Made by a program: the position numbers and the translations under genes. DNA of 64,000 bases from Minisyncoccota bacterium. Its GTDB lineage: Bacteria > Patescibacteriota > Minisyncoccia > Phycocordibacterales > UBA9973. The stretch covers positions 81,973 through 145,972 of the forward strand of contig JBAZSZ010000001.1 in NCBI GenBank assembly GCA_041662205.1, in the 5' to 3' direction. Shown one piece after another: positions 1 through 61,416 of the stretch. The notes below the pieces were generated by a model, which saw only the letters and a list, made by a program, of their open reading frames with translations, had not been told where the DNA came from and made no database searches. The stretch's first letter is position 1. Each line of letters begins with the position of its first letter.

Positions 1-822
1 TGGGAATGCCGACACCGCTACGAACTTGACTGGTCTCACTGCTTCTATTACTAATTTGAATTCGGTAACGGGAGTGTTAGGATCAGCTGCTTTTACGGCT
101 AGTACTTCTTATGATGCTGCCGGCTCAGCCGCCGCAGTCACGCCCACTAGTTTAGGTTTAGTCATTGGTACTGATGTTCTTGCTTACCGTACCTTCGGCT
201 CAGCCGCCAACAGTGCGACGACGGATTTTGCTGCTGCCCTCGGAGCCGATGACAATTATGTCACCGATGCACAACTCGTTGTCCTCGGTAATACCTCCGG
301 CACCAACTCTGGCAACAATGCGGCGAACTCCACCTATGCCAATGATTACCGTGCTGCCAACTTTGTGGCTGGGACCAATTACTTGGCACCGAATGGCTCC
401 GCCGCTCTCCTCACTTCTTTCCCCACGCTCAACCAGAGTACGACTGGGAATGCCGACACCGCTACGAACTTGACTGGTCTCACTGCTTCTATTACTAATT
501 TGAATTCGGTAACGGGAGTGTTAGGATCAGCTGCTTTTACGGCTAGTACTTCTTATGATGCTGCCGGCTCAGCCGCCGCAGTCACGCCCACTAGTTTAGG
601 TTTAGTCATTGGTACTGATGTTCTTGCTTACCGTACCTTCGGCTCAGCCGCCAACAGTGCGACGACGGATTTTGCTGCTGCCCTCGGAGCCGATGACAAT
701 TATGTCACCGATGCACAACTCGTTGTCCTCGGTAATACCTCCGGCACCAACTCTGGCAACAATGCGGCGAACTCCACCTATGCCAATGATTACCGTGCTG
801 CCAACTTTGTGGCTGGGACCAA
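1..822. repeat. Tandem direct repeat with a 443-bp period. Copy 1 is 1-~379 and may extend upstream. Copy 2 is 444-~822 and appears identical before diverging at ~823.
   Basis: The sequence at 1-60 recurs at 444-503, and identity continues to about 379 versus 822. The alternative-frame ORFs 165..473 and 609..839 give identical translations. Confidence 0.85.
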
Positions 823-2554
823 TTATCAAGCTCCTTTAGTTTCAAATTCAAATATCAAAACTGTTAATGGCACTTCTCTTCTCGGTAGTGGAGATATTAC
901 TCAGACATCTGTTTCAGGTAACGCGGGGACCGTCACTAACGCTACCTTTACCACGGCGCTGACGGTCAATACTGGAACCCTCACTTTGACTGCCAACGCT
1001 GCCAACACTTCTGTTCTCACTATCGGAGCTGGAGCAGTTTCAGTTTCTGGAAGTAATACCGGGGATCAGACTTTAGCAGGCCTAGGTGCCGCTGCCGCTA
1101 ATGGTTCCAACTGGACTTTTGCTTCCCAAGCAATCGGAGATTTAGCTTACGCAACTAGCGCCACTGCTTATGGAAGACTAGCAGATGTAGCAACTGGAAG
1201 TGTCTTAATCTCTGGTGGTGTTGGGGTGGCCCCATCTTGGTCTACCACTCCGACTTTTACTGGTACTAATATTTCTGGTACGGCGGCTAACTTGACTGCT
1301 GGTCATGTCACCAACGGCACCTTTACTACGGCGTTGACGGTTAACGGCGGTACAGGTGGCACAATCACATGGCCAACTGGTGCACCGACTTTAACAATTC
1401 CAAGTGGCGGGGGAACGTTGGGTACAGGTGCTTTTGCGACAATTGCTAACTATGCCCCACTTGCTTCCCCGACTTTTACTGGTACAGTTACTCTGCCGAG
1501 TGGCACAACACTTACTGCGCCAAAGTTTGTCGATCTTGGTTTTATTGCGGATGCTAATGGTAACGAAATGATTATTTTTGATACAGTGACTTCTGCTGTT
1601 AATGAAATCACGCTAGCAAACGCAGCTACAACTGCCAGCCCAACAATTTCCGCTTCTGGTGAAACAAATGTATCTTTGAATATTAAAGCCAAAGGCACTG
1701 GTAGTGTAGATGTTGGTAATACTGCTGGTACATTAGCATTTTCTATAGATTCTTCTGGTAATGTTCTCATACTACCAACATATTCTGTAACAGTAGGTGC
1801 GACTAATCGTGATCTGTATATAGATAATACTGGTAAGATTGGTTATGTTTCTTCCGCCGAGCGTTATAAAAAAGATATTTCTAATATGGAAAATATTTCT
1901 TGGCTGTATGATTTGCGCCCAGTCAATTATGTGTATAAAAATGATTCGTTGGGACGAAAGCAATATGGACTTATTGCTGAAGAAGTAGACAAGGTCAATC
2001 CGCTGTTTGTGAGCTATAATGACCAAGGACAGCCAGAAACGGTGCAGTATTCAATGTTCGCACCGGTGTTGATTAAAGCAATTCAGGAACTAAATTTAAA
2101 TTTTGAAGCTGTTGCAGGTACCGTCACTCCACTTACTGGATCTGCTTCCGAATCTTTTGTGAATGTATTCTTTAGTAATATTAAAAATACCATCGGCACA
2201 TGGCTCGCAGATGCTACAAATGGAGTGACAGATGTTTTCGCAAATGTATTTAATGCTAAAGAAAAAATCTGTGTAGATGGGGAATGCTTAACGAAGGATG
2301 ATATTCACGCCTTGCTTTTACTCGCGCATCCGACGACCACCCCGCCTCCTGCTTCAGCGGGCGAGTCGGTACCTGTTCCAGCGCCAGAAATTCCGACGTG
2401 TGTCGATCCTCAAACTTTAGTAAATAATGTTTGCATGGATCCAGCAATCGAGTCTCCGGTAGTCACTTGTTCTGATGGCATTCAAAACCAAGATGAAACT
2501 GACATAGACACTGGAGGAGTTTGTGTTCCAATTCCAGCTGAAATAGTGCCGTAA
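1..2554 (+). CDS. Tail-fibre-like repeat protein with a C-terminal intramolecular chaperone (peptidase S74-like) domain and a Cys/Pro-rich tail. It is 5'-partial and its frame is open to the window edge.
   Basis: The ORF 26..2554 is in frame with position 2. It is rich in Thr, Ser, Ala, Gly and Asn with no TM segment. The region SSAERYKKDISNMENISWLYDLRPVNYVYKND...QYGLIAEEVDKVNPLFVSY resembles the auto-cleaving chaperone domain of phage tail-spike and endosialidase proteins. A 128-aa segment is repeated identically. Confidence 0.55.
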   Translation, partial: GNADTATNLTGLTASITNLNSVTGVLGSAAFTASTSYDAAGSAAAVTPTSLGLVIGTDVLAYRTFGSAANSATTDFAAALGADDNYVTDAQLVVLGNTSGTNSGNNAANSTYANDYRAANFVAGTNYLAPNGSAALLTSFPTLNQSTTGNADTATNLTGLTASITNLNSVTGVLGSAAFTASTSYDAAGSAAAVTPTSLGLVIGTDVLAYRTFGSAANSATTDFAAALGADDNYVTDAQLVVLGNTSGTNSGNNAANSTYANDYRAANFVAGTNYQAPLVSNSNIKTVNGTSLLGSGDITQTSVSGNAGTVTNATFTTALTVNTGTLTLTANAANTSVLTIGAGAVSVSGSNTGDQTLAGLGAAAANGSNWTFASQAIGDLAYATSATAYGRLADVATGSVLISGGVGVAPSWSTTPTFTGTNISGTAANLTAGHVTNGTFTTALTVNGGTGGTITWPTGAPTLTIPSGGGTLGTGAFATIANYAPLASPTFTGTVTLPSGTTLTAPKFVDLGFIADANGNEMIIFDTVTSAVNEITLANAATTASPTISASGETNVSLNIKAKGTGSVDVGNTAGTLAFSIDSSGNVLILPTYSVTVGATNRDLYIDNTGKIGYVSSAERYKKDISNMENISWLYDLRPVNYVYKNDSLGRKQYGLIAEEVDKVNPLFVSYNDQGQPETVQYSMFAPVLIKAIQELNLNFEAVAGTVTPLTGSASESFVNVFFSNIKNTIGTWLADATNGVTDVFANVFNAKEKICVDGECLTKDDIHALLLLAHPTTTPPPASAGESVPVPAPEIPTCVDPQTLVNNVCMDPAIESPVVTCSDGIQNQDETDIDTGGVCVPIPAEIVP

Positions 2555-10362: not shown

Positions 10363-11037
10363 ATGAAGATTCTGATTGTTGAAGATGAAGAAAATATTGC
10401 TAAACTTTTAAAAAAGGGTCTCGAATCTGAGGGTTATGCTGTTGATTACTTGACGGATGGGGAGTCTGGGCAAAATCGTATTTTAATGCATCATCAAGAT
10501 TATGATTTAATAATTTTGGATTTGATGCTTCCTTTGAAATCTGGAAAGGAGATTTGCCACAGTATGAGAGAGATGGATATTTCTACTCCGGTTTTAGTGT
10601 TAACTGCGAAATGTGATTCAGTCAGCAAAGTATCTTTGCTCGATATCGGAGCCGATGACTATATGTCAAAACCGTTCGAACTTGCAGAATTATTTGCCAG
10701 AATCAGAGCTTTGACTCGACGACCCAAAGTTTCTCTGCCGGTAGAATTGAAAATAAGTGATCTGGTTTTATCTGCGAAAGATAAAAAGGTTTTTAGAAAC
10801 AAAAAAGATTTAAATCTTACTTTAAAAGAATTCAGACTCTTAGAATATTTTATGCGTCGTCCCAACCAAGTAGTAGAGAGAGTTGACTTGGTGGATAACC
10901 TTTGGGATTTTGATCAAGATTCATTTTCTAATACGGTGGATGTGTATATAAATCGCTTAAGGAATAAAGTAGATAAAGGCAGAAAAGAAAAAATGATTCA
11001 AACAATTCGCGGAGTAGGATACAAATTAAAAGTTTAA
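10363..11037 (+). CDS. OmpR-family response regulator (receiver plus winged-helix DNA-binding domain)
   Basis: MKILIVEDEENIAKLL, the IILDLMLP Asp pocket and the C-terminal pattern YINRLRNKVD...IRGVGYKL are present. No kinase is adjacent. Confidence 0.85.
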   Translation: MKILIVEDEENIAKLLKKGLESEGYAVDYLTDGESGQNRILMHHQDYDLIILDLMLPLKSGKEICHSMREMDISTPVLVLTAKCDSVSKVSLLDIGADDYMSKPFELAELFARIRALTRRPKVSLPVELKISDLVLSAKDKKVFRNKKDLNLTLKEFRLLEYFMRRPNQVVERVDLVDNLWDFDQDSFSNTVDVYINRLRNKVDKGRKEKMIQTIRGVGYKLKV

Positions 11038-14685: not shown

Positions 14686-14849
14686 AAAAATTAAAAAGCA
14701 GGCCTTACTTCATTTGTTTAGTTTTTAATAATAAATTTAACTTTAACTTTTAACATGTAAGTATAATTTTATTATAAGGATTTGAGTGAAGCGAAGGGTC
14801 GAATAGTTAGTCGAATATAAAAATATTATAAAAATAAAGAATAAAAATT

Positions 14850-16829
14850 ATGAATAAAAAAAGTATTAAAGCGTTATATGTGTTGTTGTTTGCAAAAATG
14901 AATAGAAAAGTTAAATATAAATTTAGCGCGTCTCTGTTGACAGGTGTTTTTATGTTTACTTTAGTATTTAGCGCTGGAGTGGCACAAGCTGCGTTGCAAG
15001 CTGTCGGGCCAATAGGAGATCCTGTAAATAATGGATATCCTACATATTTCCAAGATCAAACAGGATTAGCTTTGGAATTATGTCTGGTACAAAATTTACC
15101 AACCGACCTATTCCAACCATGTCTCTTGACTGCGGAATTTGATCCAGACCCATTAATAACACCTGGCATTCCAGCAATTCCAATTGGAACAGTTCTTAGC
15201 GGGGATTTTCCAGATGAATCATTTTACTTTGCCGCTAGCGCAGACTTAAGTCCTGACAATGTTAGACTTCCTGGAAGAAATCAGGATATCAAAATTTTGT
15301 GGGGGGCTGCTTTAGAGCAAGCCTTTTTGGCCGGAATAACTCCTGGAGCACAAAGCATGTTTTTAAGAACTCAAGTTGATATAGCTGGTTTAATCCCCGG
15401 AGAAACTTATACTGTCAATACTCCTTACGGACCGATTAGTGTGGTTGCTGATGATATCGGTGGAGGGAGAACAAGATTTGAGGACATAGTAGTCTGCAAC
15501 GTTGGAACTCTATGTAATTTTTCATTAATCTTACCGGGGACTCAAACAAATATGGGGCCATTTCTAAAATGGGATCCTGCGGTTTTACCTCTTGCCCCAG
15601 CTGGATTTATCGGTGATCCTAATGTAACACACACAATTATCGGTGGACCAATTAGGAATAATATTTCTGTTACAGGAACAAGTGTTGGGGGAGTCGGCAT
15701 AGATGAAATGTCCACTGATCAATTTTCAATTTCTGGGAAAATAGCAATCATTGACACTGTCGCACCAGTAATTGTTTCAACTACTCCTGCCTCTGTACCA
15801 GTAAATTCTTCTAATGTTGTTTTAAGCGCAAACATTACTGACGACTTAGGAGTGACTGGAGTTACAGCTGATTTAGGAGCATTAAGCAACACTTTTTCTG
15901 CTACTCTTAATAATACACAGGAAGTTCCTGCAACCGTAAGTACTGCAACAGGAACTGGAGCATTTACTATTGATGCAAATGCAAATACATTAACTTATAA
16001 TATTAGTGCTTCAGGTTTGCAAGGTGGAGCAATCACCGGAATGCATATTCACGGATCTGCTGTTCCTCCAGATGGAGCTATAGGTCAAAATTCAGCAATT
16101 GCTTTTAGCTTAGGTACGACTCTTCCGGCAAGTGGAACCTGGAATTATCCTGAAGCAATGGAACCAGAAATTTTAGCAGGAAGGACTTATGTAAATATTC
16201 ACACAACTTTATTTCCTAACGGTGAAATTCGCGGACAAATAATTCCTACCCCAAACACAGTAACTATGATCAGGAATGCCGGTACAGCAACAGACGGCAC
16301 ATGGGCACTTATTCTACCAAATTTGAATAGAGCAGGATTATTTAATATTCCTATTACAGCTACCGATGGAAGCAATCCTGTAACAACTAATCATTCTCTC
16401 GCTGTCACTGTTTTATCTGGAGTGAATGTCACTCCACCAACTGCTTCAATAAATACAGGATTAACTCAACAACTCTCAGCATCAGCTCTCGATCAATTTA
16501 ATAATCCACTAACTACCCAACCAACTTTTACTTGGTCTTCTAGTAATAACAATATTGCAACAGTTAATAGTTCAGGCCTAGTTACTGCAGTCGCTCTCGG
16601 TACTGCCACGATTACAGCCACAACTGATGGATTAATAAATGTTGCAGGTACTTCGGCAATCACAGTGACGGCAGCTTCAGTTTGCCAGACAGCAGCTGAT
16701 ATAGATGGTAGCGGAACTATAAGCTTTGCGGAAGTTCTAAGCTATATTACAAGCTGGAAAGCCGGCAACGTAGTTTTTTCAACTTTATTACAAGCAATAG
16801 GTTTTTGGAAAGCTGCAGTAGGTTGTTAA
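14850..16829 (+). CDS. Secreted CHRD-domain plus Big2-domain protein with the same C-terminal Cys-bracketed module
   Basis: A signal peptide is present. The CHRD-like segment reads GAFTIDANANTLTYNISASGLQGGAITGMHIHGS...YVNIHTTLFPNGEIRGQI. The Big2-like segment reads TQQLSASALDQFNNPLT...ATVNSSGLVTAVALGTATITATT. The C-terminus reads CQTAADIDGSGTISFAEVLSYITSWKAGNV...FWKAAVGC and ends at the stop. Confidence 0.65.
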   Translation: MNKKSIKALYVLLFAKMNRKVKYKFSASLLTGVFMFTLVFSAGVAQAALQAVGPIGDPVNNGYPTYFQDQTGLALELCLVQNLPTDLFQPCLLTAEFDPDPLITPGIPAIPIGTVLSGDFPDESFYFAASADLSPDNVRLPGRNQDIKILWGAALEQAFLAGITPGAQSMFLRTQVDIAGLIPGETYTVNTPYGPISVVADDIGGGRTRFEDIVVCNVGTLCNFSLILPGTQTNMGPFLKWDPAVLPLAPAGFIGDPNVTHTIIGGPIRNNISVTGTSVGGVGIDEMSTDQFSISGKIAIIDTVAPVIVSTTPASVPVNSSNVVLSANITDDLGVTGVTADLGALSNTFSATLNNTQEVPATVSTATGTGAFTIDANANTLTYNISASGLQGGAITGMHIHGSAVPPDGAIGQNSAIAFSLGTTLPASGTWNYPEAMEPEILAGRTYVNIHTTLFPNGEIRGQIIPTPNTVTMIRNAGTATDGTWALILPNLNRAGLFNIPITATDGSNPVTTNHSLAVTVLSGVNVTPPTASINTGLTQQLSASALDQFNNPLTTQPTFTWSSSNNNIATVNSSGLVTAVALGTATITATTDGLINVAGTSAITVTAASVCQTAADIDGSGTISFAEVLSYITSWKAGNVVFSTLLQAIGFWKAAVGC

Positions 16830-16875: not shown

Positions 16876-19800
16876 ATGAAATACTTTAAATCAATAATCA
16901 AAGCGGGAATGTTCATAGCTGTGCTGACATTCTTTGTGGGAATAGGTGCTCAAGCAGCTTCTGCCGCCACCGTCACACGTAGCTTCTCCACTCTCACGCC
17001 AGCAGCAGGAACATCTTTAACAGTTTCTCTGGCTGTAGCAATGAATCCTGCAGACATTCTAACATTGATTGAAGAAACAGCTCCTGTGGGCTGGGTCATC
17101 ACAAATCCTGGAACAGGAACAGTAGGAGCAGACGGTATTTTGAGACTGAATGTAGCTGCAACCGGAACAGAGCAATATACAATCTCTGTACCAGCTTCAG
17201 CATCAGGAATAAATAATTTCTCAGGAGTATTTGCCACATTAGCAAACCCAGTATCCTCTCCAATAACAGGAAGCACATCGGTAACGGTAGCACCTGCTCC
17301 GGTAGTTGACATAACTCCACCTACAATCAACTTACTCGGAACTTCTCCAATAGATGTAACCCAAAACACAACCTACACTGATGCAGGAGCTACTGCTTCA
17401 GATAATGTTGACGGAAACATCACAGCCAACATTACAACAGTAAACCCTGTAAATACTGCAATTTTAGGAACATACACAGTCACTTACAATGTATCTGACG
17501 CAGCTGGAAATCCTGCAACTCAAGTAACAAGAACAGTTAATGTAGTAGCAGTAGTTGTTCCACCAGTAACCGCCACCGTCACACGTAGCTTCTCCACTCT
17601 CACGCCAGCAGCAGGAACATCTTTAACAGTTTCTCTGGCTGTAGCAATGAATCCTGCAGACATTCTAACATTGATTGAAGAAACAGCTCCTGTGGGCTGG
17701 GTCATCACAAATCCTGGAACAGGAACAGTAGGAGCAGACGGTATTTTGAGACTGAATGTAGCTGCAACCGGAACAGAGCAATATACAATCTCTGTACCAG
17801 CTTCAGCATCAGGAATAAATAATTTCTCAGGAGTATTTGCCACATTAGCAAACCCAGTATCCTCTCCAATAACAGGAAGCACATCGGTAACGGTAGCACC
17901 TGCTCCGGTAGTTCCAGTCCTCACCACCATCAACGTTACTTCCGTCACCCCATCCGTAGTAGTAGGCAATACTCAACAAATGACAGCAACTACTTTAGAT
18001 CAAAACGGAGCACCGATTGCAGCAACTGTAACTTGGTCTAGTTCAAATACAGCAGTTGGCACTATTGATGTTACTACCGGAATGTTTACCGCGGTTTCTG
18101 CTGGAACTACAACTGTAATGGCAATGAACGGAGCAGTTATGGGAACAACTTTGGTAACAGTAACCGCAACACCTGTAACGTTTACAATAAATGTAACTTC
18201 CGGAGCAAATGGTACCATTACACCAACAGGTACAGCAGGAGTAGTTACTTTAAATTCTGGAGCGAACCAAACATTTACCATCACACCAAATGCAGGATTT
18301 AATATTCAGGATGTTTTAGTTGATGGATCTTCAGTTGGAGCTGTTGCTACTTTCACATTTACAAACGTAACAGCTAACCATACTATTTCAGCTAGTTTCG
18401 CATCAATTCCGGTAGGTTCATTCACGATAACTTCTTCTGCAGGAATAAATGGTAACATAGCTCCTCTTGGCGCCCTAAGTTTTGCCGGAGGCACCAATGC
18501 AACATACACAATTTCTCCAAGTGCAGGTTTTCAAGTATTAGATGTTTTAGTTGATGGATTTTCAGTTGGAGCCGTCACTACTTTCACCTTCACAAATATC
18601 ACTGCTAACCATACAATCGCTGCCAGCTTTATTGCAACTCCAGTCCTCACAACTATCACCGTTACACCATCAGCACCATCAATACAGGCTGGAACTACCC
18701 AACAATTTACCGCAGTTGCTAAGGATCAAAATGGAATTGCCTTAGTCACTCAACCGGTTTTCACATGGACATCAGGAAATAATATAGTTACCACCATAGA
18801 TGCATCAGGCCTTGCTCAGGGCATCGTCGCAGGTGGACCAGTTCTCATTACTGCTACCTCTGGAGCAGTTTCTGGTACAGCTACCTTAACAGTTACAGCA
18901 GTTCCAGTTTTGACTTCGGTCACAGTAGCTCCACCTACACCATCAATTATAGTTGGAGCAACTCAGCAACTAACAGCAAATCCTTTAGATCAAAATGGAA
19001 TTGCCTTTAACGGTGCTGCAATAGCCTGGTCTTCAAGTGATTCTACAATTGCCACAGTTGATAATAACGGCTTAGTAACAGGTGTCGCAGTTGGAACAAC
19101 AACAATCACAGCAACAGCGACTTCAGGAGCTATTACTGTAACAGGAACCGCGACAATCACAATAACCGCTAATCCAGTAACTCCTGTCCTCACTACCATC
19201 AACGTTACTCCCGTCACCCCATCCGTAGTAGTAGGAAATACTCAACAAATGACAGCAACTACTTTAGATCAAAACGGAGCACCGATTGCAGCAACTGTAA
19301 CTTGGTCTAGTTCAAATACAGCAGTTGGCACTATTGATGTTACTACCGGAATGTTTACCGCGGTCGCAGTAGGCACTACCACAATTACTGCTACGAGTGG
19401 CGCGGTGACAGGAACAACTTTAGTAACAGTAACTCCTGCTCCTGTCCTCACTACCATCAACGTTACTCCCGTCACCCCATCCGTAGTAGTAGGCAATACT
19501 CAACAAATGACAGCAACTACTTTAGATCAAAACGGAGCACCGATTGCAGCAACTGTAACTTGGTCTAGTTCAAATACAGCAGTTGGCACTATTGATGTTA
19601 CTACCGGAATGTTTACCGCGGTCGCAGTAGGCACTACCACAATTACTGCTACGAGTGGCGCGGTGACAGGAACAACTTTGGTGACGGTGACAGCGGTGCC
19701 TCAATCTAGTGGAGGTGGTGGTAGTTTTATAAGACCCATTATTGTTGGTCAAGTATTAGGTGCTTTCACGGGACCAATTGCAGGATGTGGCAATAGAACA

Positions 19801-20175
19801 ACTGGATTTAGTGTAACTTCTGGTCAGTCTTGTGTTGGAAACACTGGATCAGAGGGTCAAATTCTCGGATGTGGCAATAGAACAACTGGATTTAGTATAA
19901 CTACTGGTCAATCTTGTATTGGAAATACTGGAGCAGATGAACAAGTGCTCGGTGCTGAAAAATTTATTTTCACACTATTCCTAAAGCAAGGTTCAAAAGG
20001 AGATGAAGTTATGGAGCTTCAGAAATTCTTAAACACTACTAAATATGGTCCATTAGTAATTGATGGAAAATTTGGGAAAAAGACTAAAGAAGCTGTTCTT
20101 AAATTCCAAATAGCAAACGGGCTAAAAGGGGATGGAATCGTAGGACCTCTAACCCGCGCAGTTCTCAATCAATAA
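16876..20175 (+). CDS. Cell-surface protein with a duplicated 114-aa domain, a HYR/DUF5011-like Ig domain, at least five Big2 repeats, a Cys repeat pair and a C-terminal peptidoglycan-binding domain
   Basis: A signal peptide is present. DITPPTINLLGTSPIDV...NVDGNITANITTV...TYNVSDAAGNP is the Ig-like domain. VGNTQQMTATTLDQNGAPIAATVTWSSSNTAVGTIDVTTGMFTAV recurs as the Big2 repeat. The C-terminus GSKGDEVMELQKFLN...IDGKFGKKTKEAVLKFQ is PG_binding_1-like. Confidence 0.7.
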   Translation: MKYFKSIIKAGMFIAVLTFFVGIGAQAASAATVTRSFSTLTPAAGTSLTVSLAVAMNPADILTLIEETAPVGWVITNPGTGTVGADGILRLNVAATGTEQYTISVPASASGINNFSGVFATLANPVSSPITGSTSVTVAPAPVVDITPPTINLLGTSPIDVTQNTTYTDAGATASDNVDGNITANITTVNPVNTAILGTYTVTYNVSDAAGNPATQVTRTVNVVAVVVPPVTATVTRSFSTLTPAAGTSLTVSLAVAMNPADILTLIEETAPVGWVITNPGTGTVGADGILRLNVAATGTEQYTISVPASASGINNFSGVFATLANPVSSPITGSTSVTVAPAPVVPVLTTINVTSVTPSVVVGNTQQMTATTLDQNGAPIAATVTWSSSNTAVGTIDVTTGMFTAVSAGTTTVMAMNGAVMGTTLVTVTATPVTFTINVTSGANGTITPTGTAGVVTLNSGANQTFTITPNAGFNIQDVLVDGSSVGAVATFTFTNVTANHTISASFASIPVGSFTITSSAGINGNIAPLGALSFAGGTNATYTISPSAGFQVLDVLVDGFSVGAVTTFTFTNITANHTIAASFIATPVLTTITVTPSAPSIQAGTTQQFTAVAKDQNGIALVTQPVFTWTSGNNIVTTIDASGLAQGIVAGGPVLITATSGAVSGTATLTVTAVPVLTSVTVAPPTPSIIVGATQQLTANPLDQNGIAFNGAAIAWSSSDSTIATVDNNGLVTGVAVGTTTITATATSGAITVTGTATITITANPVTPVLTTINVTPVTPSVVVGNTQQMTATTLDQNGAPIAATVTWSSSNTAVGTIDVTTGMFTAVAVGTTTITATSGAVTGTTLVTVTPAPVLTTINVTPVTPSVVVGNTQQMTATTLDQNGAPIAATVTWSSSNTAVGTIDVTTGMFTAVAVGTTTITATSGAVTGTTLVTVTAVPQSSGGGGSFIRPIIVGQVLGAFTGPIAGCGNRTTGFSVTSGQSCVGNTGSEGQILGCGNRTTGFSITTGQSCIGNTGADEQVLGAEKFIFTLFLKQGSKGDEVMELQKFLNTTKYGPLVIDGKFGKKTKEAVLKFQIANGLKGDGIVGPLTRAVLNQ
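16964..17913. repeat. Two apparently identical 344-bp direct repeats (16964-17307 and 17570-17913), 606 bp apart, inside the surface-protein gene
   Basis: Both copies start at ccgccaccgtcacacgtagcttctcc and end at cacctgctccggtagtt. The protein segments ATVTRSF...APAPVV are identical. The minus-strand ORFs 16950..17369 and 17520..17969 translate identically. Confidence 0.85.
19183..19698. repeat. Tandem near-identical 258-bp (86-aa Big2) repeats, with a more diverged copy at ~17914-18100
   Basis: cctgtcctcactaccatcaacgttactcccgtcaccccatccgtagtagtagg... recurs at 19183 and 19441. Confidence 0.8.
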
Positions 20176-22961: not shown

Positions 22962-23211
22962 ATTTATATTTTAAATTTAAAAAAATATTAATAATTTATA
23001 ATATTTAATATATACATTTGTTTTCTTAATTTAAGATTAAAATAAACAGATTCAAACGTAAGTGATATCAAGCTATTGAACCCATTACAGCAATATTGAC
23101 AATTCAGCTTTGAATGGTAATATATCGATGGATGCACTTTGTGATATCCAAAACCGATAAATTAAAATGTCGGAATAAATAATATAAAATAGCCTAGGGC
23201 GAGGAGGAGTT

Positions 23212-24144
23212 ATGGAATTGGAACTGAAACTGCATTATATTGCACTAATCCTGCTTTTGAACGCAAAAGGGGAAGTTTTACTTGCCCGGATGGGGAATAT
23301 CTGGGGGCTTCTTGGTGGGCATGTTGAACCCACTGATGGAAGTAGGGAGGGTGCTGCTACCCGGGAAGTTGAGGAAGAGGCTCAACTGAAAGAAATAACC
23401 GGAAAAAAGAGACTTTTTAGAGCCGATGAAGTAAGACAAAAGGGGTTATATATGTTCGACGTCGATGTCGGACATTGCTATGACGAGAGACCCCCAGGCT
23501 TTCTCTTAAAGGAGAAAATTTCTGAGACTAGATGGTGGAGTATCGAGGCTACCAGTAGTCTTATTTTGACACCGATGGCCATTCGAGCTATCGACTCTTT
23601 GAGGGAAAAAAAAGACCGGTCATTCTTTACGAAATGCCAATACCACTTTGAGTCAATACTGTATGAAGCAGCCCTGCGAGGCTGCGATCGGTTTACTCTC
23701 CTTGACCTAAAGAAGGGACTAGAAAAAAATAACCCCCTCCTTGATTTAATTAACAAGATCCCTGACTCTGACAAACTCTCTAATCAACAGGTGGAGTTTG
23801 AAAAAATCATTGTTATGGTTGATGACGATGAATACACAATACTCACCGTCAGAAAGATGCTTTTAGCTGAGGGGTATCGGGTCTTTATATTCTCAGACCC
23901 AAGAGAGGCTTTGAGATGGTTGGAGAACTCAACCATATACGTTCATGCTTTGATCACCGACCAGAACATGCCCTACATCTCGGGATCAGGGCTCCTCAAG
24001 AAAGTACAGGTGTTAGAGTCTGTTAAGTATTCAAAATTTATTTTAATCAGCGGTGCGGAGGTTTTCCCCGCTGAAAAAGAGGGGTTTGACAATTTTTTCG
24101 TCAGACCAGTCTTGCCCGAAGAATTAATTAGGGCAATATCTTAG
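23212..24144 (+). CDS. Nudix hydrolase domain fused to a response-regulator receiver (REC) domain
   Basis: The Nudix box reads GGHVEPTDGSREGAATREVEEEAQL, matching Gx5Ex7REUxEExGU. The C-terminal REC domain reads IIVMVDDDEYT...ALITDQNMPYISG...ILISGAE. Local GC is visibly higher. Confidence 0.7.
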   Translation: MELELKLHYIALILLLNAKGEVLLARMGNIWGLLGGHVEPTDGSREGAATREVEEEAQLKEITGKKRLFRADEVRQKGLYMFDVDVGHCYDERPPGFLLKEKISETRWWSIEATSSLILTPMAIRAIDSLREKKDRSFFTKCQYHFESILYEAALRGCDRFTLLDLKKGLEKNNPLLDLINKIPDSDKLSNQQVEFEKIIVMVDDDEYTILTVRKMLLAEGYRVFIFSDPREALRWLENSTIYVHALITDQNMPYISGSGLLKKVQVLESVKYSKFILISGAEVFPAEKEGFDNFFVRPVLPEELIRAIS

Positions 24145-24168
24145 ATCAAATAATCCCCGTTTCGACCT

Positions 24169-25782
24169 ATGTCGGAGCGGGGATTTGCTATTTTTATAGA
24201 ACTATTCATAATAATTAACATGGCGCGCATACTATATAAAAAAATACTTTCGAGAATCGGAAGGATTCTCACTACAATCTGGCAATATATCTTTGCCCTT
24301 GAGTATGTCCGGTTGCATCAATTAGAAATCACCGAGAGCGAACAAAAGTTCCGCTTGATAGCGGAATCGGTAAATAACGCGATCATCATGTTTGACGACG
24401 CTGGACTCGTGGTGTACTGGAATAAGAGCGCCAAACGAATATTCGGTTATGACGAAAGTGAGGTCCTCGGAAAACCATTTATTCTTGGTATGGATAAAAA
24501 TAAAAATGACTGGAACATAGAGAAAAATACGTCAGTCGAGATGCGAGGGGTGCGGAAAAACGGTAAAGAATTCCCCTTGAAAGTGTCGTATTCATCATGG
24601 AAAGTTGGTGAGAAACAATTTCACACAGCCATCGCCCGAGATGTTGGCCCTTATCGAGCTACAGAACAAAAGCTCCGTGATTATGCTCAAAAAATGGAGG
24701 AAGGCAAAGCATTCGACGACGCACTTCTCTTGAGTATCGCTGATGGCATTTTGGTAACCGACACGTTCGGTAAAATTACTTACATCAACAAAGCGCTTGA
24801 AGAGCTTTGCGGTGTGAAGTCCTGGGAATTGTTGTACCATGATTTGGATGAAAAGATTCCATTTTTCGATGAGCTTGGGAGACGCGTGCCGAAAGAGAAA
24901 CGGCCACTTTATATTGCACTAGATGCCGATAAAAAAAATAATGTATCCTTGGTCTCAACTGCGACGACCTTTCATCTTATCAATAAGAAAGATAAACGAA
25001 TGGTCCCACTCTCGATCAGCTCAGCACCGCTCGTGATTAATGGCGAGATTAAAGGAGCGGTGGTTGTCTGGCGTGATATAACCCATGAAAAGGAAGTCGA
25101 TAAAGCGAAAAGCGAGTTTATTTCTTTTGCTTCACATCAACTTCGCACGCCACTCACCACTATTTCTCTTACCACAGAAATGTTAATGAGGAGTATGGTG
25201 GGCAATATGAGCAAGGAGAATAAAAAATATTTAAAAAATATTTTAAAAGAAGTAAAAGGTATGACAGAAACAATCCAAACGTTTTTGAATATTTCCCGTA
25301 TCGAACTGGACAAATTCGAAATAGAGCTAGAGCCGGTAAAATTATTCGGGATAATAGACGAAATAGCGGAAGAAATACTGCCACAGATCGATAAGAAGAA
25401 AATCCGTTTCAAGAAACAATATAATAAAAATCTACCAACTATGAATTTAGACAGAAGAATTATCAGAATTATCTTAGAAAATTTCCTTTCGAATGCTATA
25501 AAATATTCAAAAATAGGTGGCCAGATAATGCTCCTAGCAAAAGAAACTACCAATAATATTATCATCGAAGTTACAGACAATGGTATTGGTATTCCCAAAA
25601 AAGATCAAGATAAGATATTTACAAAAATGTTTCGGGCGAGAAATGTTTCAGAGCATGCCAATGTAAGTTCAGGACTAGGTCTTTATCTAGTTAAAAATTT
25701 AGCGGAACAAAGTGGCTATAAAATCTCTGTTAAATCAAAAGAAGATAAAGGCAGCACTTTCTCAATTTCCTTACCTCTCTAA
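24169..25782 (+). CDS. Soluble sensor histidine kinase (two PAS-like domains, HisKA, HATPase_c). The start may be at 24219.
   Basis: FASHQLRTPL is the H-box. The N box and the G boxes DNGIGIP and GLGLYLV are present. No TM segments are present. PAS-like segments read ESVNNAIIMFDDAGLVVYWN and IADGILVTDTFGKITYIN. Confidence 0.8.
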   Translation: MSERGFAIFIELFIIINMARILYKKILSRIGRILTTIWQYIFALEYVRLHQLEITESEQKFRLIAESVNNAIIMFDDAGLVVYWNKSAKRIFGYDESEVLGKPFILGMDKNKNDWNIEKNTSVEMRGVRKNGKEFPLKVSYSSWKVGEKQFHTAIARDVGPYRATEQKLRDYAQKMEEGKAFDDALLLSIADGILVTDTFGKITYINKALEELCGVKSWELLYHDLDEKIPFFDELGRRVPKEKRPLYIALDADKKNNVSLVSTATTFHLINKKDKRMVPLSISSAPLVINGEIKGAVVVWRDITHEKEVDKAKSEFISFASHQLRTPLTTISLTTEMLMRSMVGNMSKENKKYLKNILKEVKGMTETIQTFLNISRIELDKFEIELEPVKLFGIIDEIAEEILPQIDKKKIRFKKQYNKNLPTMNLDRRIIRIILENFLSNAIKYSKIGGQIMLLAKETTNNIIIEVTDNGIGIPKKDQDKIFTKMFRARNVSEHANVSSGLGLYLVKNLAEQSGYKISVKSKEDKGSTFSISLPL

Positions 25783-25870
25783 ATTTTAATCTTAAATTAA
25801 TTTATCTATTTTATAATCTATGGGTGTCCATAGGTCAATATTTATATTTTATTTTTAAAGTGAATAATTA

Positions 25871-26203
25871 ATGAAATTTATAATGTTTGTAAAATGCAAA
25901 GAGGATGTTGAGAGAGATGCTTTGCTTGATGCGAAGGTCTTTGCTGATATGACAAAATTTAATAATAAGCTAGAAAAAGCTAAAGTGTTGGTCACGTTAG
26001 ATGGTCTTCAGCCGAGTTCAAAGGGTGTGCGACTTTCTTATTTAAGCAATAAAGAGCCTATCGCAATGGAAGATCCATGCTCAAATCCAGAGGATTTAAT
26101 CGAAGGTTTTTGGATTATCGATGTTAAATCAAAAGAGGAAGCGATAAATTGGGCGAAACGTGTTCCTTTTAGTGGCGGTGTGGTTGAGGTTCGACCGATA
26201 TAA
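25871..26203 (+). CDS. Small conserved protein (YciI/Dabb-like fold?) of unknown function
   Basis: The ORF is 110 aa with no TM segment. The assignment is weak. Confidence 0.3.
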   Translation: MKFIMFVKCKEDVERDALLDAKVFADMTKFNNKLEKAKVLVTLDGLQPSSKGVRLSYLSNKEPIAMEDPCSNPEDLIEGFWIIDVKSKEEAINWAKRVPFSGGVVEVRPI

Positions 26204-26289
26204 GACATATCAGATTTTCCACTAGATAATGTGATATGATATAAAAGTGGTTGTATTAACTTTATTAAAAATTAATTATTAAAATTTAT

Positions 26290-26706
26290 ATGGCAATTCA
26301 TTTTGAATGGACAAAAAGTATGTCAGTTGGGGAAAATCATATCGACGAACAGCACAAGAAATTGCTGTCGCAACTTAATAAAATTATTGATGCTATAACC
26401 ATAGGAGTAAAATCTAAAGAAACATCTGAAGCTATTGGTTTTTTTGATGAATACATAAAAGAACATTTTTCTTATGAAGAATACTATATGCATGAATATA
26501 GTTATCCTCACGTAGAAGAGCATATAAAAAAACACGATGAATTTATAAAAAGTTACGTTGCTTTTTTGGGTAAATTAAATAGTGGAGAAAATGCGAATGA
26601 TTTGATCATGGAAGTGGAAACCTATCTCGGAGAATGGTGGATAAATCACATTGGAAAAGAAGATCAAAAATATCATTATTTTATTGACAGTATTTCCAAA
26701 AAATAG
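26290..26706 (+). CDS. Bacteriohemerythrin
   Basis: WTKSMSVGENHIDEQHKKLLSQLN is the hemerythrin cation-binding signature. Further His/Glu ligands occur at HEYSYPHVEEHIKKHDEF. Confidence 0.8.
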   Translation: MAIHFEWTKSMSVGENHIDEQHKKLLSQLNKIIDAITIGVKSKETSEAIGFFDEYIKEHFSYEEYYMHEYSYPHVEEHIKKHDEFIKSYVAFLGKLNSGENANDLIMEVETYLGEWWINHIGKEDQKYHYFIDSISKK

Positions 26707-26712
26707 CAACAG

Positions 26713-27432
26713 ATGAATCCTCAAAATTCTATAAAACAGATTGAGCCACATACGAAAAAATTGGGGCAAAAATTAAATCGATTAAGAGCAGCTGTTTTGG
26801 GTGCAAATGATGGTATCGTGTCTACTGCTGCTTTGGTGGTCGGTGTTGCTGGAGCTTCTAATTCTTCTAGTTTTATTTTGACTGCCGGAGTGGCTGGTCT
26901 AGTAGCTGGTGCGATCTCAATGGGAGTAGGTGAATATGTCTCTGTCAGCTCTCAGTGTGACAGTGAAAAAGCTCTCATAGAAAAAGAACGCCAAGAGCAT
27001 ATTGATAGTCCGACAATTGAATTTAAGGAACTTGTAGAAATTTATATTCACAAAGGATTGTCTTCCGAGACTGCTCATAAAGTAGCGGAAGAACTCACTA
27101 ACCATGGAGCATTAATAGCGCATCTTGATGCAGAGCTTGGTATTGACCCGCATGATCTCGTCGATCCGTGGCACGCAGCTTATGTGTCTGTTATCGCTTT
27201 TGTTTGTGGGGGTATTATTCCTCTTGCCATGATTCTCATTCCTTCTGTCACTTGGCGTATCCCCGTTACTTTTTTTGGTGTTTTAGTTGCTTTAATTATT
27301 ACTGGAGCGCTTAGCGCTTATGTTGGGGGAGCAAATAAAAAGACAGCAGTCTTTCGTTTAGTATTTGGTGGTATGTTGGCGATGGCTGTGACATTCGGTA
27401 TTGGAAAACTTCTCGGAGTGGTTGGGATATAA
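26713..27432 (+). CDS. VIT1/CCC1-family iron/manganese transporter
   Basis: LRAAVLGANDGIVSTAALVVGVAGA is the VIT-family motif. About 5 TM segments are present. Confidence 0.75.
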   Translation: MNPQNSIKQIEPHTKKLGQKLNRLRAAVLGANDGIVSTAALVVGVAGASNSSSFILTAGVAGLVAGAISMGVGEYVSVSSQCDSEKALIEKERQEHIDSPTIEFKELVEIYIHKGLSSETAHKVAEELTNHGALIAHLDAELGIDPHDLVDPWHAAYVSVIAFVCGGIIPLAMILIPSVTWRIPVTFFGVLVALIITGALSAYVGGANKKTAVFRLVFGGMLAMAVTFGIGKLLGVVGI

Positions 27433-59931: not shown

Positions 59932-59934
59932 TCT

Positions 59935-60008
59935 TGGTGCGGGATGCGAGAATCGAACTCGCGTCTAATCCTTGGGAAGGACTCATTCTACCACTAAACC
60001 AATCCCGC
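59935..60008 (-). tRNA. tRNA-Gly (anticodon CCC), CCA encoded
   Basis: The minus strand reads GCGGGATTGGTTTAGTGGTAGAATGAGTCCTTCCCAAGGATTAGACGCGAGTTCGATTCTCGCATCCCGCACCA. Confidence 0.8.
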
Positions 60009-60046
60009 ATATTATGTTTTCAAAATATCTTAGTAGACTTAGAAAT

Positions 60047-60076
60047 ACTCATTTTACCACTAAACCAATCCCGCAT
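60047..60076. repeat. Direct repeat of the 5' portion (acceptor/D-arm) of tRNA-Gly, 29 of 30 nt identical to 59979-60008
   Basis: actcattttaccactaaaccaatcccgcat matches actcattctaccactaaaccaatcccgcat. Confidence 0.7.
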
Positions 60077-60155
60077 ATAAGAAAATATAGCTTTATTTTA
60101 GATGCTTGACAAGTGTGCTATAATTGAAATATTAGAAATTAATTATAAAAATATT

Positions 60156-60389
60156 ATGAAAAATGTAACAATTTATTCAACCGATACCTGTCATTTTTGC
60201 CACTTGGCAAAAGATTTCTTTACTGCAAATAGTGTAGTTTTTACTGAATACAATGTAGGAACTGATATAGAAAAAAGAAAAGAAATGATGGAAAAAAGCG
60301 GACAAATGGGTGTGCCGGTTATTATGATTGGTGATGAAATCATCGTAGGTTTTGATAAACCTAAAATCTCTCAATTATTAGGTCTCTAG
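60156..60389 (+). CDS. Glutaredoxin/NrdH-like thioredoxin-fold protein (CxxC)
   Basis: MKNVTIYSTDTCHFCHLAKDF...GQMGVPVIMIGDEIIVGFD is present. Confidence 0.6.
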   Translation: MKNVTIYSTDTCHFCHLAKDFFTANSVVFTEYNVGTDIEKRKEMMEKSGQMGVPVIMIGDEIIVGFDKPKISQLLGL

Positions 60390-60499
60390 TTTGTGTGGCT
60401 ACAAATAATTTCTCGCCGTCGCTCGAAATTTTCGCAGCCCACCCCTCGCAATTTTGTGTTCTCACAAAATATCGTTGCGGTCGGCACACTAACGTAAAA

Positions 60500-60527
60500 A
60501 CATGCAGCAGTGCATGTTTTATACTTG
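60500..60527 (-). terminator. Hairpin plus T-tract after tRNA-Arg on the minus strand
   Basis: The hairpin is aaaacatgca-gcag-tgcatgtttt. Confidence 0.5.
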
Positions 60528-60529
60528 TG

Positions 60530-61364: not shown

Positions 61365-61416
61365 TATTCTAAGTTTTTTACTTTTATTTTTTTAAATTTT
61401 ATGCTAAATTATACCT

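What the first reader, a model, noticed from the sequence alone, without database searches (positions are those of the whole stretch)
23212..25782. Nudix hydrolase-receiver fusion paired with a soluble dual-PAS histidine kinase in a GC-richer block
Gene 23212..24144 joins a complete Nudix box (GGHVEPTDGSREGAATREVEEEAQL) to a C-terminal REC domain in place of a DNA-binding output. Its Asp pocket reads ITDQNMP. The next gene is a cytoplasmic kinase with two PAS-like domains. The output of this two-component system would therefore be hydrolysis of a nucleoside-diphosphate-X compound (a signalling nucleotide, ADP-ribose, a capped RNA?) rather than transcription. The order, with Nudix at the N-terminus and REC at the C-terminus, is the reverse of typical response regulators. 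Base composition over about 23.2-25.8 kb looks clearly more GC-rich than the flanks, suggesting horizontal acquisition.
Basis: partly seen in the sequence, partly recalled or inferred. Interest (0 to 1): 0.6.

Follow-up and report, generated by a model that had tools for sequence, protein, structure and literature searches.

The report
Nudix hydrolase fused to a phospho-receiver
A tiny uncultivated (CPR) bacterium carries a real, conserved gene in which a nucleotide-cleaving Nudix enzyme is fused to a two-component receiver domain and sits next to its own sensor kinase, so a signal probably acts directly on a nucleotide pool; the family is rare and unstudied.

Summary
The observation largely holds. 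ORF 23212..24144 encodes NUDIX (aa 8-114) plus a C-terminal receiver (aa 200-309). The next gene is a PAS-PAS-HisKA-HATPase_c kinase.

- **The fusion is real.** The same Nudix / three-helix linker / REC architecture recurs in about 15 clusters (50% identity), from independent assemblies. All named members are CPR bacteria.
- **Both halves keep their catalytic residues.** REx2EE and E101 in Nudix; the acidic pair, D250 and S/T in REC.
- **Corrections.**
  - The Nudix box is not fully canonical: D for E, one extra residue, Q for the last G.
  - The receiver Lys is Arg here.
  - The kinase most likely starts at 24220, after a conserved hairpin.
  - Only clade-A members have an adjacent kinase.
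  - An orphan OmpR-type regulator lies at 10363..11037.
- **Composition.** Bulk GC and tetranucleotides are not outliers. GC3 is (z = 4.9 and 3.3), and it persists in three diverged alleles, which argues against simple recent acquisition. The cassette does sit in different neighbourhoods and is bracketed here by a perfect 18-nt inverted repeat.
- **Substrate.** Unknown. Other clades sit beside guanylate kinase or pyruvate kinase, hinting at nucleoside polyphosphates.

Verdict: a new variant of an enzymatic response regulator, of moderate interest.

The parts
23026..23043 (+). Left arm of a perfect 18-nt inverted repeat (TTAATTTAAGATTAAAAT) that brackets the cassette
   Evidence: There are only two copies in the 64 kb window, and 0 of 100 shuffles give 2 matches. 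The repeat extends to 40 nt at 75% complementarity (23011-23050 / 25776-25815).
23096..23123 (+). Sigma-70-like promoter: TTGACA, 16 nt, TG-TAATAT. A conserved GCACTTTGT box follows at about 23136-23144.
   Evidence: Best promoter-like site in the scan, 10/12 matches plus TG. It is conserved in the window, L001 and L010 although the coding sequences are only 49-54% identical.
23201..23209 (+). Shine-Dalgarno sequence GAGGAGGAG, ending 2 nt before the ATG
   Evidence: Read from the sequence. The same AGGAGGAG precedes the conserved start in L001 and L010.
23212..24144 (+). Nudix-linker-REC response regulator gene (310 aa)
   Evidence: AF2 model: mean pLDDT 89.4, pTM 0.67.
23212..23616 (+). Minimal MutT-like Nudix domain (aa 1-135)
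   Evidence: Pfam NUDIX. Foldseek TM 0.7-0.8 to single-domain Nudix enzymes. Best PDB sequence match is Ndx1, E 3.7e-11.
23317..23388 (+). Nudix box, aa 36-59 (GHVEPTDGSREGAATREVEEEAQL). Core R51-E52-x2-E55-E56 is intact. Deviations: D42 for E, one extra residue, Q58 for G.
23512..23514 (+). E101, an invariant acidic residue outside the box; candidate extra metal ligand or catalytic base
   Evidence: Invariant in the 18-sequence alignment. The assigned role is inferred.
23617..23799 (+). Family-specific linker of three helices (aa 138-155, 160-171, 174-181) plus a loop
   Evidence: AF2 secondary structure. No Pfam hit. No Foldseek alignment extends into it. A linker+REC profile finds it only in this family.
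23800..24141 (+). Receiver (REC) domain, aa 197-310: D204/D205, D250 (23959-23961), S280, R298
   Evidence: Pfam Response_reg. PDB alignments to CheY-like receivers, rmsd 1.5-2.1. Residue conservation.
24152..24195 (+). Conserved 15-bp hairpin followed by TTGCTATTTTT: a terminator or attenuator between regulator and kinase
   Evidence: -25.9 kcal/mol, z about -5. The outer stem is identical and the inner stem differs but stays paired in L001/L002. L010 ends in the start of the same hairpin.
24220..25782 (+). Soluble histidine kinase (520 aa from the conserved start). Approximate domains: PAS1 24346-24678, PAS2 24730-25083, HisKA 25105-25305 (His 25135-25137), HATPase_c 25450-25779.
   Evidence: It is 84% identical to the L001 kinase.
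25783..25800 (-). Right arm of the 18-nt inverted repeat, starting right after the kinase stop codon
25816..25835 (+). Terminator-like hairpin after the kinase gene
   Evidence: This is a consensus match only.

Best explanation
This is a self-contained two-gene two-component cassette of a Candidatus Paceibacterota (CPR) bacterium.

**Shown from sequence**
- One conserved promoter drives a response regulator, a conserved hairpin follows it, and then comes a soluble PAS-PAS-HisKA-HATPase_c kinase.
- The regulator has a minimal MutT-like Nudix pyrophosphohydrolase at the N-terminus, a family-specific three-helix linker, and a canonical receiver at the C-terminus.
- Catalytic residues are intact in both halves.

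**Inferred**
- The kinase senses an intracellular cue through its PAS domains, autophosphorylates on the H-box His and transfers the phosphoryl group to D250.
- Phosphorylation changes the receiver's alpha4-beta5-alpha5 face. Through the helical linker, by dimerisation or by release of an inhibitory contact, this switches the Nudix active site on or off.
- The signal is thereby converted directly into hydrolysis of a nucleoside-diphosphate-X compound.

**Substrate (weakest step)**
- The most likely class is a nucleoside tri- or polyphosphate or a dinucleoside polyphosphate, possibly of the guanine pool: GTP, 8-oxo-GTP, (p)ppGpp or ApnA.
- ADP-ribose, NADH and CoA are less likely.
For: **Domains and motifs**
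- Both Pfam domains score above their cut-offs.
- REx2EE, E101, GGH and W108 are invariant or nearly so. The acidic pair, D250 and S/T are kept in every member.
- All kinase motifs are present.

**Structure**
- AF2 gives a confident three-part model, pLDDT 89.4.
- The Nudix part superposes on single-domain NTP/ApnA-type Nudix enzymes and the REC part on CheY-like receivers.
- The best PDB sequence relatives are the Ap6A hydrolase Ndx1 (E 3.7e-11), DIPP1-3 and an Ap4A hydrolase.

**Conservation as a unit**
- The fusion recurs in about 15 clusters at 50% identity.
- The RR-hairpin-HK unit with its own promoter is conserved in L001/L002, and partly in L010, in different neighbourhoods.

**Gene neighbourhood in other clades**
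- Guanylate kinase lies 1-35 nt upstream on the same strand in three clusters from two clades that are about 30% identical.
- Pyruvate kinase lies directly downstream in three clusters.

**Subfamily markers absent**
- Read against the sequence, the ADP-ribose (Pro +15/16), NADH (SQPWPFPxS) and CoA motifs are absent. The motif definitions are from memory of Dunn et al. 1999.
Against: - There is no experimental datum for any member and no paper describing the architecture.
- The receiver Lys is Arg in this protein and in P0002, which may alter switching.
- The Nudix box departs from the consensus at three places.
- A kinase is adjacent in only 2 of about 10 contexts examined, so for most members the phosphodonor is unknown.
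- Fold and sequence matches do not discriminate between Nudix specificities. The top hits mix NTPases, ApnA hydrolases, an 'ADP-ribose pyrophosphatase' and NUDT12.
- The Tyr marker of ApnA hydrolases is absent.
- Model coordinates and PAE were not available, so the inter-domain mechanism is pure inference.
- The gmk and pyruvate kinase adjacency could reflect conserved synteny rather than function.
Confidence: 0.6

Rival explanations
1. The receiver is not a working switch here. The protein would be a constitutive housekeeping MutT-like nucleotide-sanitising enzyme whose REC domain serves only as a structural or dimerisation module, or is phosphorylated non-specifically, for example by acetyl phosphate. 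The neighbouring kinase would signal mainly to the orphan OmpR-type regulator.
For: - The Lys is replaced by Arg at the conserved receiver position in this protein and in P0002.
- Most family members have no adjacent kinase.
- An orphan OmpR-type regulator lies at 10363..11037 and there is no second kinase in the window.
- A strong hairpin could uncouple expression of the two genes.
Against: - The acidic pair, the phospho-acceptor Asp and S/T are conserved in all members, and Lys in all but two. That is not expected for a decayed pseudo-receiver.
- The RR-HK pair, the promoter and the hairpin are kept together in two genomes in different neighbourhoods.
- Arg is a conservative replacement for Lys.
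Confidence: 0.15
2. The Nudix domain is an input rather than an output. It would bind a nucleotide ligand, as the Nudix domain of NrtR binds ADP-ribose, and so tune how well the attached receiver accepts or drains phosphate. The protein would then act as a metabolite-gated phosphate sink or connector for the kinase pathway.
For: - Having REC at the C-terminus is the order expected for 'sensor then receiver'.
- The Nudix box is non-canonical in three positions.
- A NrtR Nudix domain appears among the fold matches.
Against: - The catalytic core REx2EE and E101 are invariant across clades that are only about 25% identical. Non-catalytic Nudix domains normally lose these residues (general knowledge).
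- The nearest relatives are active hydrolases.
Confidence: 0.1
3. The cassette is a conflict or defence module of the Detocs type. A kinase would detect infection and activate a receiver-effector that depletes an essential nucleotide.
For: - It has a two-component layout with a nucleotide-degrading effector.
- The cassette occupies different neighbourhoods in three genomes and is bracketed here by an 18-nt inverted repeat.
- The effector protein diverges about five times faster than the kinase: dN 0.38 against 0.08.
Against: - There is no significant match to any PADLOC model.
- There are no relatives in phage or plasmid collections.
- There is no stand-alone buffer receiver gene, and the kinase has PAS rather than TPR sensors.
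- Neighbours are housekeeping genes, and other clades are embedded next to gmk or pyruvate kinase.
- Synonymous divergence of the regulator lies within the genome's background range.
Confidence: 0.07
4. The fusion is an artefact, that is, a frameshift or an assembly join of two separate genes.
For: None found.
Against: - The same uninterrupted architecture occurs in about 15 sequence clusters from independent JGI, ENA, Logan and NCBI assemblies.
- It includes a conserved linker found nowhere else.
Confidence: 0.01

Closest known systems
Response regulators with enzymatic outputs (CheB methylesterase, PleD/WspR GGDEF, RpfG HD-GYP, RsbU-type PP2C regulators)
   Same: A canonical receiver domain is covalently joined to an enzyme, so phosphorylation acts on catalysis rather than on DNA binding. 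It is encoded next to a HisKA-type kinase.
   Different: - The output is a Nudix pyrophosphohydrolase. No paper in the searchable library describes that.
- The order is output-linker-REC rather than REC-output.
- A family-specific three-helix linker joins the halves.
- All named members are CPR bacteria.
Thermus thermophilus Ndx1 (Ap6A hydrolase), DIPP/NUDT3-type and Aquifex Ap4A hydrolases
   Same: - They are the best sequence matches among solved structures (E 3.7e-11 for Ndx1, full-domain alignment).
- They share the compact single-domain Nudix fold and a GH-x-EP start to the box.
   Different: - Identity is only 20-29%.
- There is one extra residue in the box, D for E and Q for G.
- There is no Tyr marker downstream.
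- This protein carries a linker and a receiver, whereas those enzymes are stand-alone.
Mycobacterial MutT1 (Nudix domain plus histidine-phosphatase domain)
   Same: It is a two-domain Nudix protein linked to two-component signalling: MutT1 dephosphorylates sensor kinases (PMC12407098, abstract listed). Its Nudix domain is a fold match.
   Different: The second domain there is a histidine phosphatase acting on kinases, not a receiver that is phosphorylated. The two are not homologous outside the Nudix domain.
Detocs defence system (kinase, buffer receiver, receiver-PNP effector)
   Same: The logic is that of a two-component system whose effector degrades nucleotides.
   Different: - No PADLOC hit.
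- Two genes rather than three.
- PAS sensors.
- Receiver at the C-terminus.
- Housekeeping neighbourhood.
cRec domains (Rec-like cyclic-phosphate-processing domains in NAD/ADP-ribose conflict systems)
   Same: They are Rec-fold domains that co-occur with ADP-ribose-processing enzymes, including Nudix (PMC9503650 and PMC7824862).
   Different: cRec is reported never to occur with a histidine kinase. Here a kinase is adjacent, and the domain matches Pfam Response_reg end to end with the D-D-D-S/T-(K/R) set.

Membership tests
Nudix hydrolase superfamily (PF00293) | Nudix alpha/beta/alpha fold | tested here: met
   Pfam NUDIX scores 45.1 bits against a cut-off of 21.1. The AF2 model gives Foldseek TM 0.7-0.8 to many Nudix structures.
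Nudix hydrolase superfamily (PF00293) | Catalytic core REx2EE of the Nudix box | tested here: met
   R51, E52, E55 and E56 are invariant in 18 family sequences.
Nudix hydrolase superfamily (PF00293) | Full 23-residue consensus GX5EX7REUXEEXGU | tested here: not met
   The box reads G36-x5-D42, then 8 residues, then REVEEEAQL: E to D, one insertion, G to Q. The Q/K/T/N replacement of the last G is family-wide.
Nudix hydrolase superfamily (PF00293) | Mg/Mn-dependent hydrolysis of a nucleoside diphosphate-X bond | not testable with these tools
   This needs an enzyme assay.
Nudix specificity subfamilies (ADP-ribose, NADH, CoA, ApnA markers of Dunn et al. 1999; definitions from memory) | Pro 15-16 residues after the box (ADPRase); SQPWPFPxS (NADH); the upstream CoA motif; Tyr 16-18 residues after the box (ApnA) | tested here: not met
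   In the sequence, positions +15/+16 are V74/R75, there is no SQPWPFP and no CoA motif. The only nearby Tyr is Y80 (+21), which is not conserved.
Two-component receiver domain (PF00072) | Receiver fold and profile match | tested here: met
   Response_reg scores 39.8 bits against a cut-off of 30.2, covering profile positions 1-110 of 111. Foldseek gives rmsd 1.5-2.1 to CheY-like receivers.
Two-component receiver domain (PF00072) | Acidic pair, phospho-acceptor Asp and Ser/Thr | tested here: met
   D204/D205, D250 and S280 are present. The equivalents are present in all full-length members.
Two-component receiver domain (PF00072) | Conserved Lys at the end of beta5 | tested here: not met
   It is R298 in the window protein and in P0002, and Lys in all other members.
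Two-component receiver domain (PF00072) | Phosphotransfer from a cognate histidine kinase | not testable with these tools
   Genomic adjacency alone is shown, in the window and in L001-L004.
HisKA-type sensor histidine kinase | H-box His and the N, G1, F and G2 boxes | tested here: met
   HisKA E 1.6e-15 and HATPase_c E 1.2e-23. The motifs SHQLRTPL, NFLSNAIKYS, DNGIGI, IFTKMF and GLGLYL were located. No NCBIfam equivalog reaches its cut-off.
Detocs / known anti-phage systems | Match to the system's protein models and a three-gene layout | tested here: not met
   PADLOC gives only weak domain-level hits, with best E values of 3.8e-4 and 5.7e-8 to unrelated candidate families. The unit has two genes.
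cRec (cyclic-phosphate-processing Rec) | Never associated with a histidine kinase; found in RNA-repair or cADPr contexts | tested here: not met
   A kinase lies directly downstream in the window and in L001-L004. The definition is taken from PMC9503650.

The most novel reading that the evidence does not exclude
The family would be a signal-controlled brake on the nucleoside-triphosphate pool, most likely the guanine pool, of CPR bacteria.
- A receiver-gated Nudix pyrophosphatase would work against guanylate kinase and pyruvate kinase, next to which it is encoded in other clades.
- Its substrate would be GTP, (p)ppGpp, 8-oxo-GTP or ApnA.
- Organisms with minimal regulatory repertoires would thereby gain a direct route from a two-component signal to growth-rate or alarmone control, without transcription.

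That would be a new output class for two-component systems.
Probability: 0.2. Interest if true: 0.75.

Novelty: new variant of a known kind. Interest (0 to 1): 0.5.

Why it matters
- **A new enzymatic output.** Response regulators with enzymatic outputs are few and have each opened a field (chemotaxis adaptation, c-di-GMP turnover). A Nudix output would add direct, phosphorylation-gated control of a nucleotide or alarmone pool.
- **CPR biology.** CPR/Patescibacteria have tiny genomes, few regulators and salvage-dependent nucleotide metabolism. A dedicated signalling module aimed at nucleotides would be informative about how they regulate growth.
- **Tractability.** The family is small and the two proteins are soluble, so the hypothesis is cheap to test in vitro.
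- **Annotation.** Current names ('NUDIX domain-containing protein', 'CheY-like') each hide half of the protein.

Tried and rejected
1. **Ancient allele swapped between conserved flanks (withdrawn).**
   - First evidence: nucleotide identity steps from about 57% in the regulator gene to about 85% in the kinase gene, and NG86 dS was undefined for the regulator against 0.78 for the kinase.
   - Control: four-fold-site identity of the regulator (0.43 +/- 0.06; composition-corrected excess 0.23) lies within the background. PPDK is 0.48 (0.23), the tRNA-synthetase C-part 0.42 (0.17), and the kinase 0.59 (0.45).
   - Conclusion: the regulator is simply the fastest-evolving protein (dN 0.38 against 0.08).
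2. **Recent horizontal import from a GC-rich donor (not supported as stated).** Bulk GC and tetranucleotides are ordinary. High GC3 persists in three diverged alleles.
3. **Hpt-like phosphotransfer role for the linker (dropped).** The conserved Cys142/His145 of the close clade suggested it, but the His is absent in the other clades.
4. **Linker+REC as a module shared with other effectors (rejected).** After the family, the profile search finds only tandem REC-REC proteins.
5. **Defence system.** No PADLOC match and no phage or plasmid relatives.
6. **Riboswitch or known RNA in the 5' UTR or spacer.** No Rfam match.
7. **More loci.** Scans of GTDB representative genomes and JGI metagenomes returned only the P0002 contig.
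Full report
**1. What is in the sequence**

Pfam places a NUDIX domain at aa 8-114 (E 1.2e-11) and a Response_reg domain at aa 200-309 (E 5.5e-10) in the first protein. Both are above the curated cut-offs. The second protein has two PAS stretches, HisKA and HATPase_c. NCBIfam gives no equivalog for either. The kinase is merely PnpS/WalK/PhoR-like, below cut-off.

The quoted strings are at aa 35-59 and aa 248-254. A GAGGAGGAG Shine-Dalgarno sequence ends 2 nt before the ATG. An identical protein is on record from a 377-kb contig of a Candidatus Paceibacterota MAG.

**2. The fusion is real and defines a small family**

- A word-indexed search of 5.8 billion proteins found only two relatives. They are 54% and 49% identical and have the same two Pfam domains.
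- An exhaustive HMMER search of 1.84 billion cluster representatives found about 15 clusters that align end to end, plus fragments and a few stand-alone Nudix relatives. Everything else in the top 150 is a multi-receiver protein.
- A Nudix+linker profile separates the family (E at most 3e-47) from all other Nudix proteins (E at least 5e-13).
- Named members come from Candidatus Paceibacterota, Falkowbacteria and Portnoybacteria, all CPR.
- The sequences come from independent JGI, ENA, Logan and NCBI assemblies, so a frameshift or join is excluded.
- The pairwise identity matrix shows four clades that are only about 25-30% identical to each other.

**3. Conservation of functional residues**

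In the family alignment L33, G35, G36, H37, R51, E52, E55, E56, E101 and W108 are invariant or nearly so. The Nudix core REx2EE is therefore intact.

The box as a whole is not canonical in this protein:
- D42 replaces the first Glu.
- One extra residue precedes the Arg.
- Q58 replaces the last Gly. This last change is family-wide.

In the receiver, every full-length member keeps the conserved second Asp of the acidic pair, the phospho-acceptor Asp and a Ser/Thr. The first acidic position varies (D, E or G). The beta5 Lys is kept in all members except this protein and P0002, where it is Arg.

**4. Structure**

AlphaFold2 with the family alignment gives a confident model (mean pLDDT 89.4, pTM 0.67). 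It has a Nudix fold (aa 1-135), three helices (138-155, 160-171, 174-181) and a receiver (198-309). A second model of aa 1-190 agrees.

- Foldseek against the PDB matches the N-terminal part to compact single-domain Nudix enzymes. These include R. rubrum 3r03, E. coli NudG, NudI/YfaO, MutT, Aquifex Ap4A hydrolase, Ndx1 and the NUDT12/NudC catalytic domains.
- It matches the C-terminal part to CheY-like receivers (TM about 0.8, rmsd 1.5-2.1).
- No hit covers the linker or both domains.
- By sequence profile, the best solved relative is the Ap6A hydrolase Ndx1 (E 3.7e-11), followed by a mix that includes DIPP1-3 and an Ap4A hydrolase.
- A linker+REC profile finds the linker only in this family. 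The next hits are tandem REC-REC proteins.

**5. The operon**

- **Promoter.** The best promoter-like site is TTGACA-16-TG-TAATAT at 23096-23123. It is conserved, together with a downstream GCACTTTGT box, in the window, L001 and L010, although the coding sequences are only 49-54% identical.
- **Hairpin.** A 15-bp hairpin lies at 24152-24185 (-25.9 kcal/mol, z -5.1 to -5.7) between the two genes, followed by TTGCTATTTTT. In L001/L002 the outer stem is identical and the inner stem differs but still pairs (-28 kcal/mol, z -7.9). L010 breaks off inside the same hairpin. This looks like a terminator or attenuator that sets the regulator:kinase ratio.
- **Kinase start.** The ATG at 24169 lies inside the hairpin, and in L001 an in-frame stop lies upstream of the conserved start. 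The conserved start is ATG 24220 (MARILYKK / MVRLYEKM). From that start there is no hydrophobic segment, so the kinase is soluble.
- **Known RNAs.** Rfam finds nothing in the region.

**6. Comparative context**

In L001-L004 the same regulator-kinase pair lies between NTP_transferase/tRNA-Ser and Pyr_redox/FtsZ. In L010 the upstream neighbour is a TruB-like gene. In the window the neighbours are a DUF1554-like protein and YCII/hemerythrin/VIT1.

The window and L001 come from related genomes. Window 57.5-64 kb is syntenic with L001 1-7 kb, including the tRNA-Gly/Arg/Phe set. Even so, alignable DNA around the cassette starts just upstream of the -35 box and stops just after the kinase stop codon. 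The cassette has therefore been relocated as a unit.

In the window, and only there, the cassette is bracketed by a perfect 18-nt inverted repeat at 23026-23043 and 25783-25800. These are the only two copies in 64 kb, and 0 of 100 shuffles reach two copies.

Other clades lack an adjacent kinase:
- Guanylate kinase lies 1-35 nt upstream on the same strand in P0013, P0010 and P0032. These come from two clades about 30% identical to each other.
- Pyruvate kinase lies directly downstream in P0012, P0052 and P0091.
- MiaB lies downstream in P0005.
- The nearby kinase in L005 is only a 23%-identical, domain-level relative.

**7. Composition**

- Bulk GC of the block is 0.403 against 0.3635 for the window. 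Eleven per cent of equal-sized windows are as high, and several genes are higher because of amino-acid composition.
- Tetranucleotide distance is average.
- GC3 is different. At 0.466 and 0.398 these are the two highest of 50 ORFs (z = 4.9 and 3.3). GC3 declines along the kinase gene from 0.53 to 0.20.
- The same holds in L001 (0.482 and 0.43 against 0.19-0.32 for neighbours) and in L010 (0.531 against 0.217). It does not hold in the pyruvate-kinase clade.
- Synonymous sites of the regulator have largely turned over between the window and L001 (four-fold identity 0.43 against 0.26 expected at saturation), yet GC3 stays high in all three alleles. The bias therefore appears to be maintained rather than a fading import signature. 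The cause is unexplained.

**8. A lead that did not survive**

The step in nucleotide identity between the two genes (57% against 85%) and an undefined NG86 dS suggested allelic replacement of the regulator. Composition-corrected four-fold-site identity puts the regulator (excess 0.23) with PPDK (0.23) and a tRNA-synthetase fragment (0.17). It puts the kinase (0.45) with PrsW, HSP20 and GGDEF (0.39-0.56). The background is heterogeneous and the regulator is not an outlier. What remains is a roughly five-fold faster protein-level rate (dN 0.38 against 0.08).

**9. Interpretation**

The most economical reading is a phosphorylation-gated Nudix hydrolase, that is, a response regulator with a new enzymatic output and reversed domain order.
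- **Shown:** the architecture, the conserved catalytic residues, the operon elements and conservation of the unit.
- **Inferred:** phosphotransfer to D250, coupling through the helical linker, and the substrate.

The substrate guess is a nucleoside tri- or polyphosphate or a dinucleoside polyphosphate, perhaps of the guanine pool. It rests on three things:
- the minimal MutT-like fold;
- the nearest solved relatives;
- the gmk and pyruvate kinase neighbourhoods, together with the absence of the ADP-ribose, NADH and CoA markers (motif definitions from memory).

The window also holds an orphan OmpR-type regulator (10363..11037) and no second kinase. The kinase may therefore have a transcriptional branch as well.

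Rivals considered:
- a non-switching receiver;
- a ligand-sensing Nudix input domain;
- a Detocs-like defence module, for which there is no PADLOC, phage or plasmid support;
- cRec-type Rec domains, which are reported never to accompany a kinase.

**10. Novelty**

Full-text searches found no description of a Nudix-receiver regulator. The only Nudix/two-component link found is mycobacterial MutT1, whose second domain is a histidine phosphatase. The proteins are already in public databases under generic names.

I rate this a new variant of a known kind (an enzymatic response regulator). It is rare, all named members are CPR bacteria, it is of moderate interest, and it is directly testable in vitro.

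Noticed in passing
window 23026-23043 (+) and 25783-25800 (-): A perfect 18-nt inverted repeat (TTAATTTAAGATTAAAAT), extendable to 40 nt at 75% complementarity, brackets exactly promoter + regulator + kinase. There are only two copies in the window and none in L001 or the other loci. It is a possible footprint of cassette mobilisation.
   Followed up: partly
window 24152-24195; L001 10950-11000: A strong hairpin plus a U-rich tract lies between the regulator and kinase genes. It is conserved, with a different but still paired inner stem, in the orthologous locus. It is probably an attenuator that sets the RR:HK ratio, and it overlaps the mechanically called kinase start at 24169.
   Followed up: yes
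window 10363-11037 (+): An orphan OmpR-family response regulator (Response_reg + Trans_reg_C) has no kinase nearby. The PAS kinase at 24220 is the only kinase in the window and could serve it too.
   Followed up: partly
L005 7417-8936; L014 5393-7008; L018 4415-6014; L007, L011, L015: In other clades the Nudix-REC gene lies 1-35 nt downstream of guanylate kinase (three clusters) or directly upstream of pyruvate kinase (three clusters). This is a recurring link to nucleotide-phosphorylating enzymes.
   Followed up: partly
window 23212-25100; L001 10028-12000; L010 622-1530: GC3 stays at 0.47-0.53 in three alleles that are only 49-54% identical, in genomes with GC3 of about 0.22-0.27. It declines along the kinase gene from 0.53 to 0.20. 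The bias seems maintained and is unexplained.
   Followed up: partly
window 57511-64000 versus L001 1-7400: This is a syntenic block: PPDK, tRNA-Gly(ccc), tRNA-Arg(cct), GGDEF, tRNA-Phe, HSP20, PrsW and a tRNA synthetase. Synonymous divergence differs markedly between genes (four-fold-site identity 0.42-0.73). In L001 the cassette follows tRNA-Ser(cga) about 3 kb beyond this block, whereas in the window it lies about 35-40 kb away.
   Followed up: partly
L010 622-1530; L001 10001-10030: Two public gene calls are off. P0003 is called about 24 codons short: the real start MVHYIAL follows an AGGAGGAG. P0002 is called 9 codons long: the 'KGGV' codons are the Shine-Dalgarno sequence.
   Followed up: yes
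window 16876-20175 (+), and 11290-16829: A 1099-aa secreted protein has a long internal duplication: an N-terminal segment of about 110 aa recurs almost verbatim. It also has repeated Ig-like modules and a C-terminal segment that looks like a peptidoglycan-binding domain. This region has the most deviant tetranucleotide composition in the window. Neighbouring large proteins carry CHRD/Big_2 and multicopper-oxidase-like domains.
   Followed up: no
window 25871-27432 (+): Directly downstream of the cassette lie a YCII-family protein, a hemerythrin and a VIT1 iron transporter. This oxygen/iron-related set might hint at what the PAS kinase senses. It is not conserved in L001.
   Followed up: no
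window 23629-23650 (aa 140-147): A Cys-x2-His pair (C142, H145) on the first linker helix is conserved in the close clade (KCQYHF / ECRHHF / ECLHHL) but absent from the other clades. It could be a clade-specific metal or redox site.
   Followed up: partly
window 1-2554: The first kilobase has GC 0.51. ORF 26..2554 has GC 0.467, driven by codon positions 1 and 2. It is the most GC-rich gene in the window.
   Followed up: no
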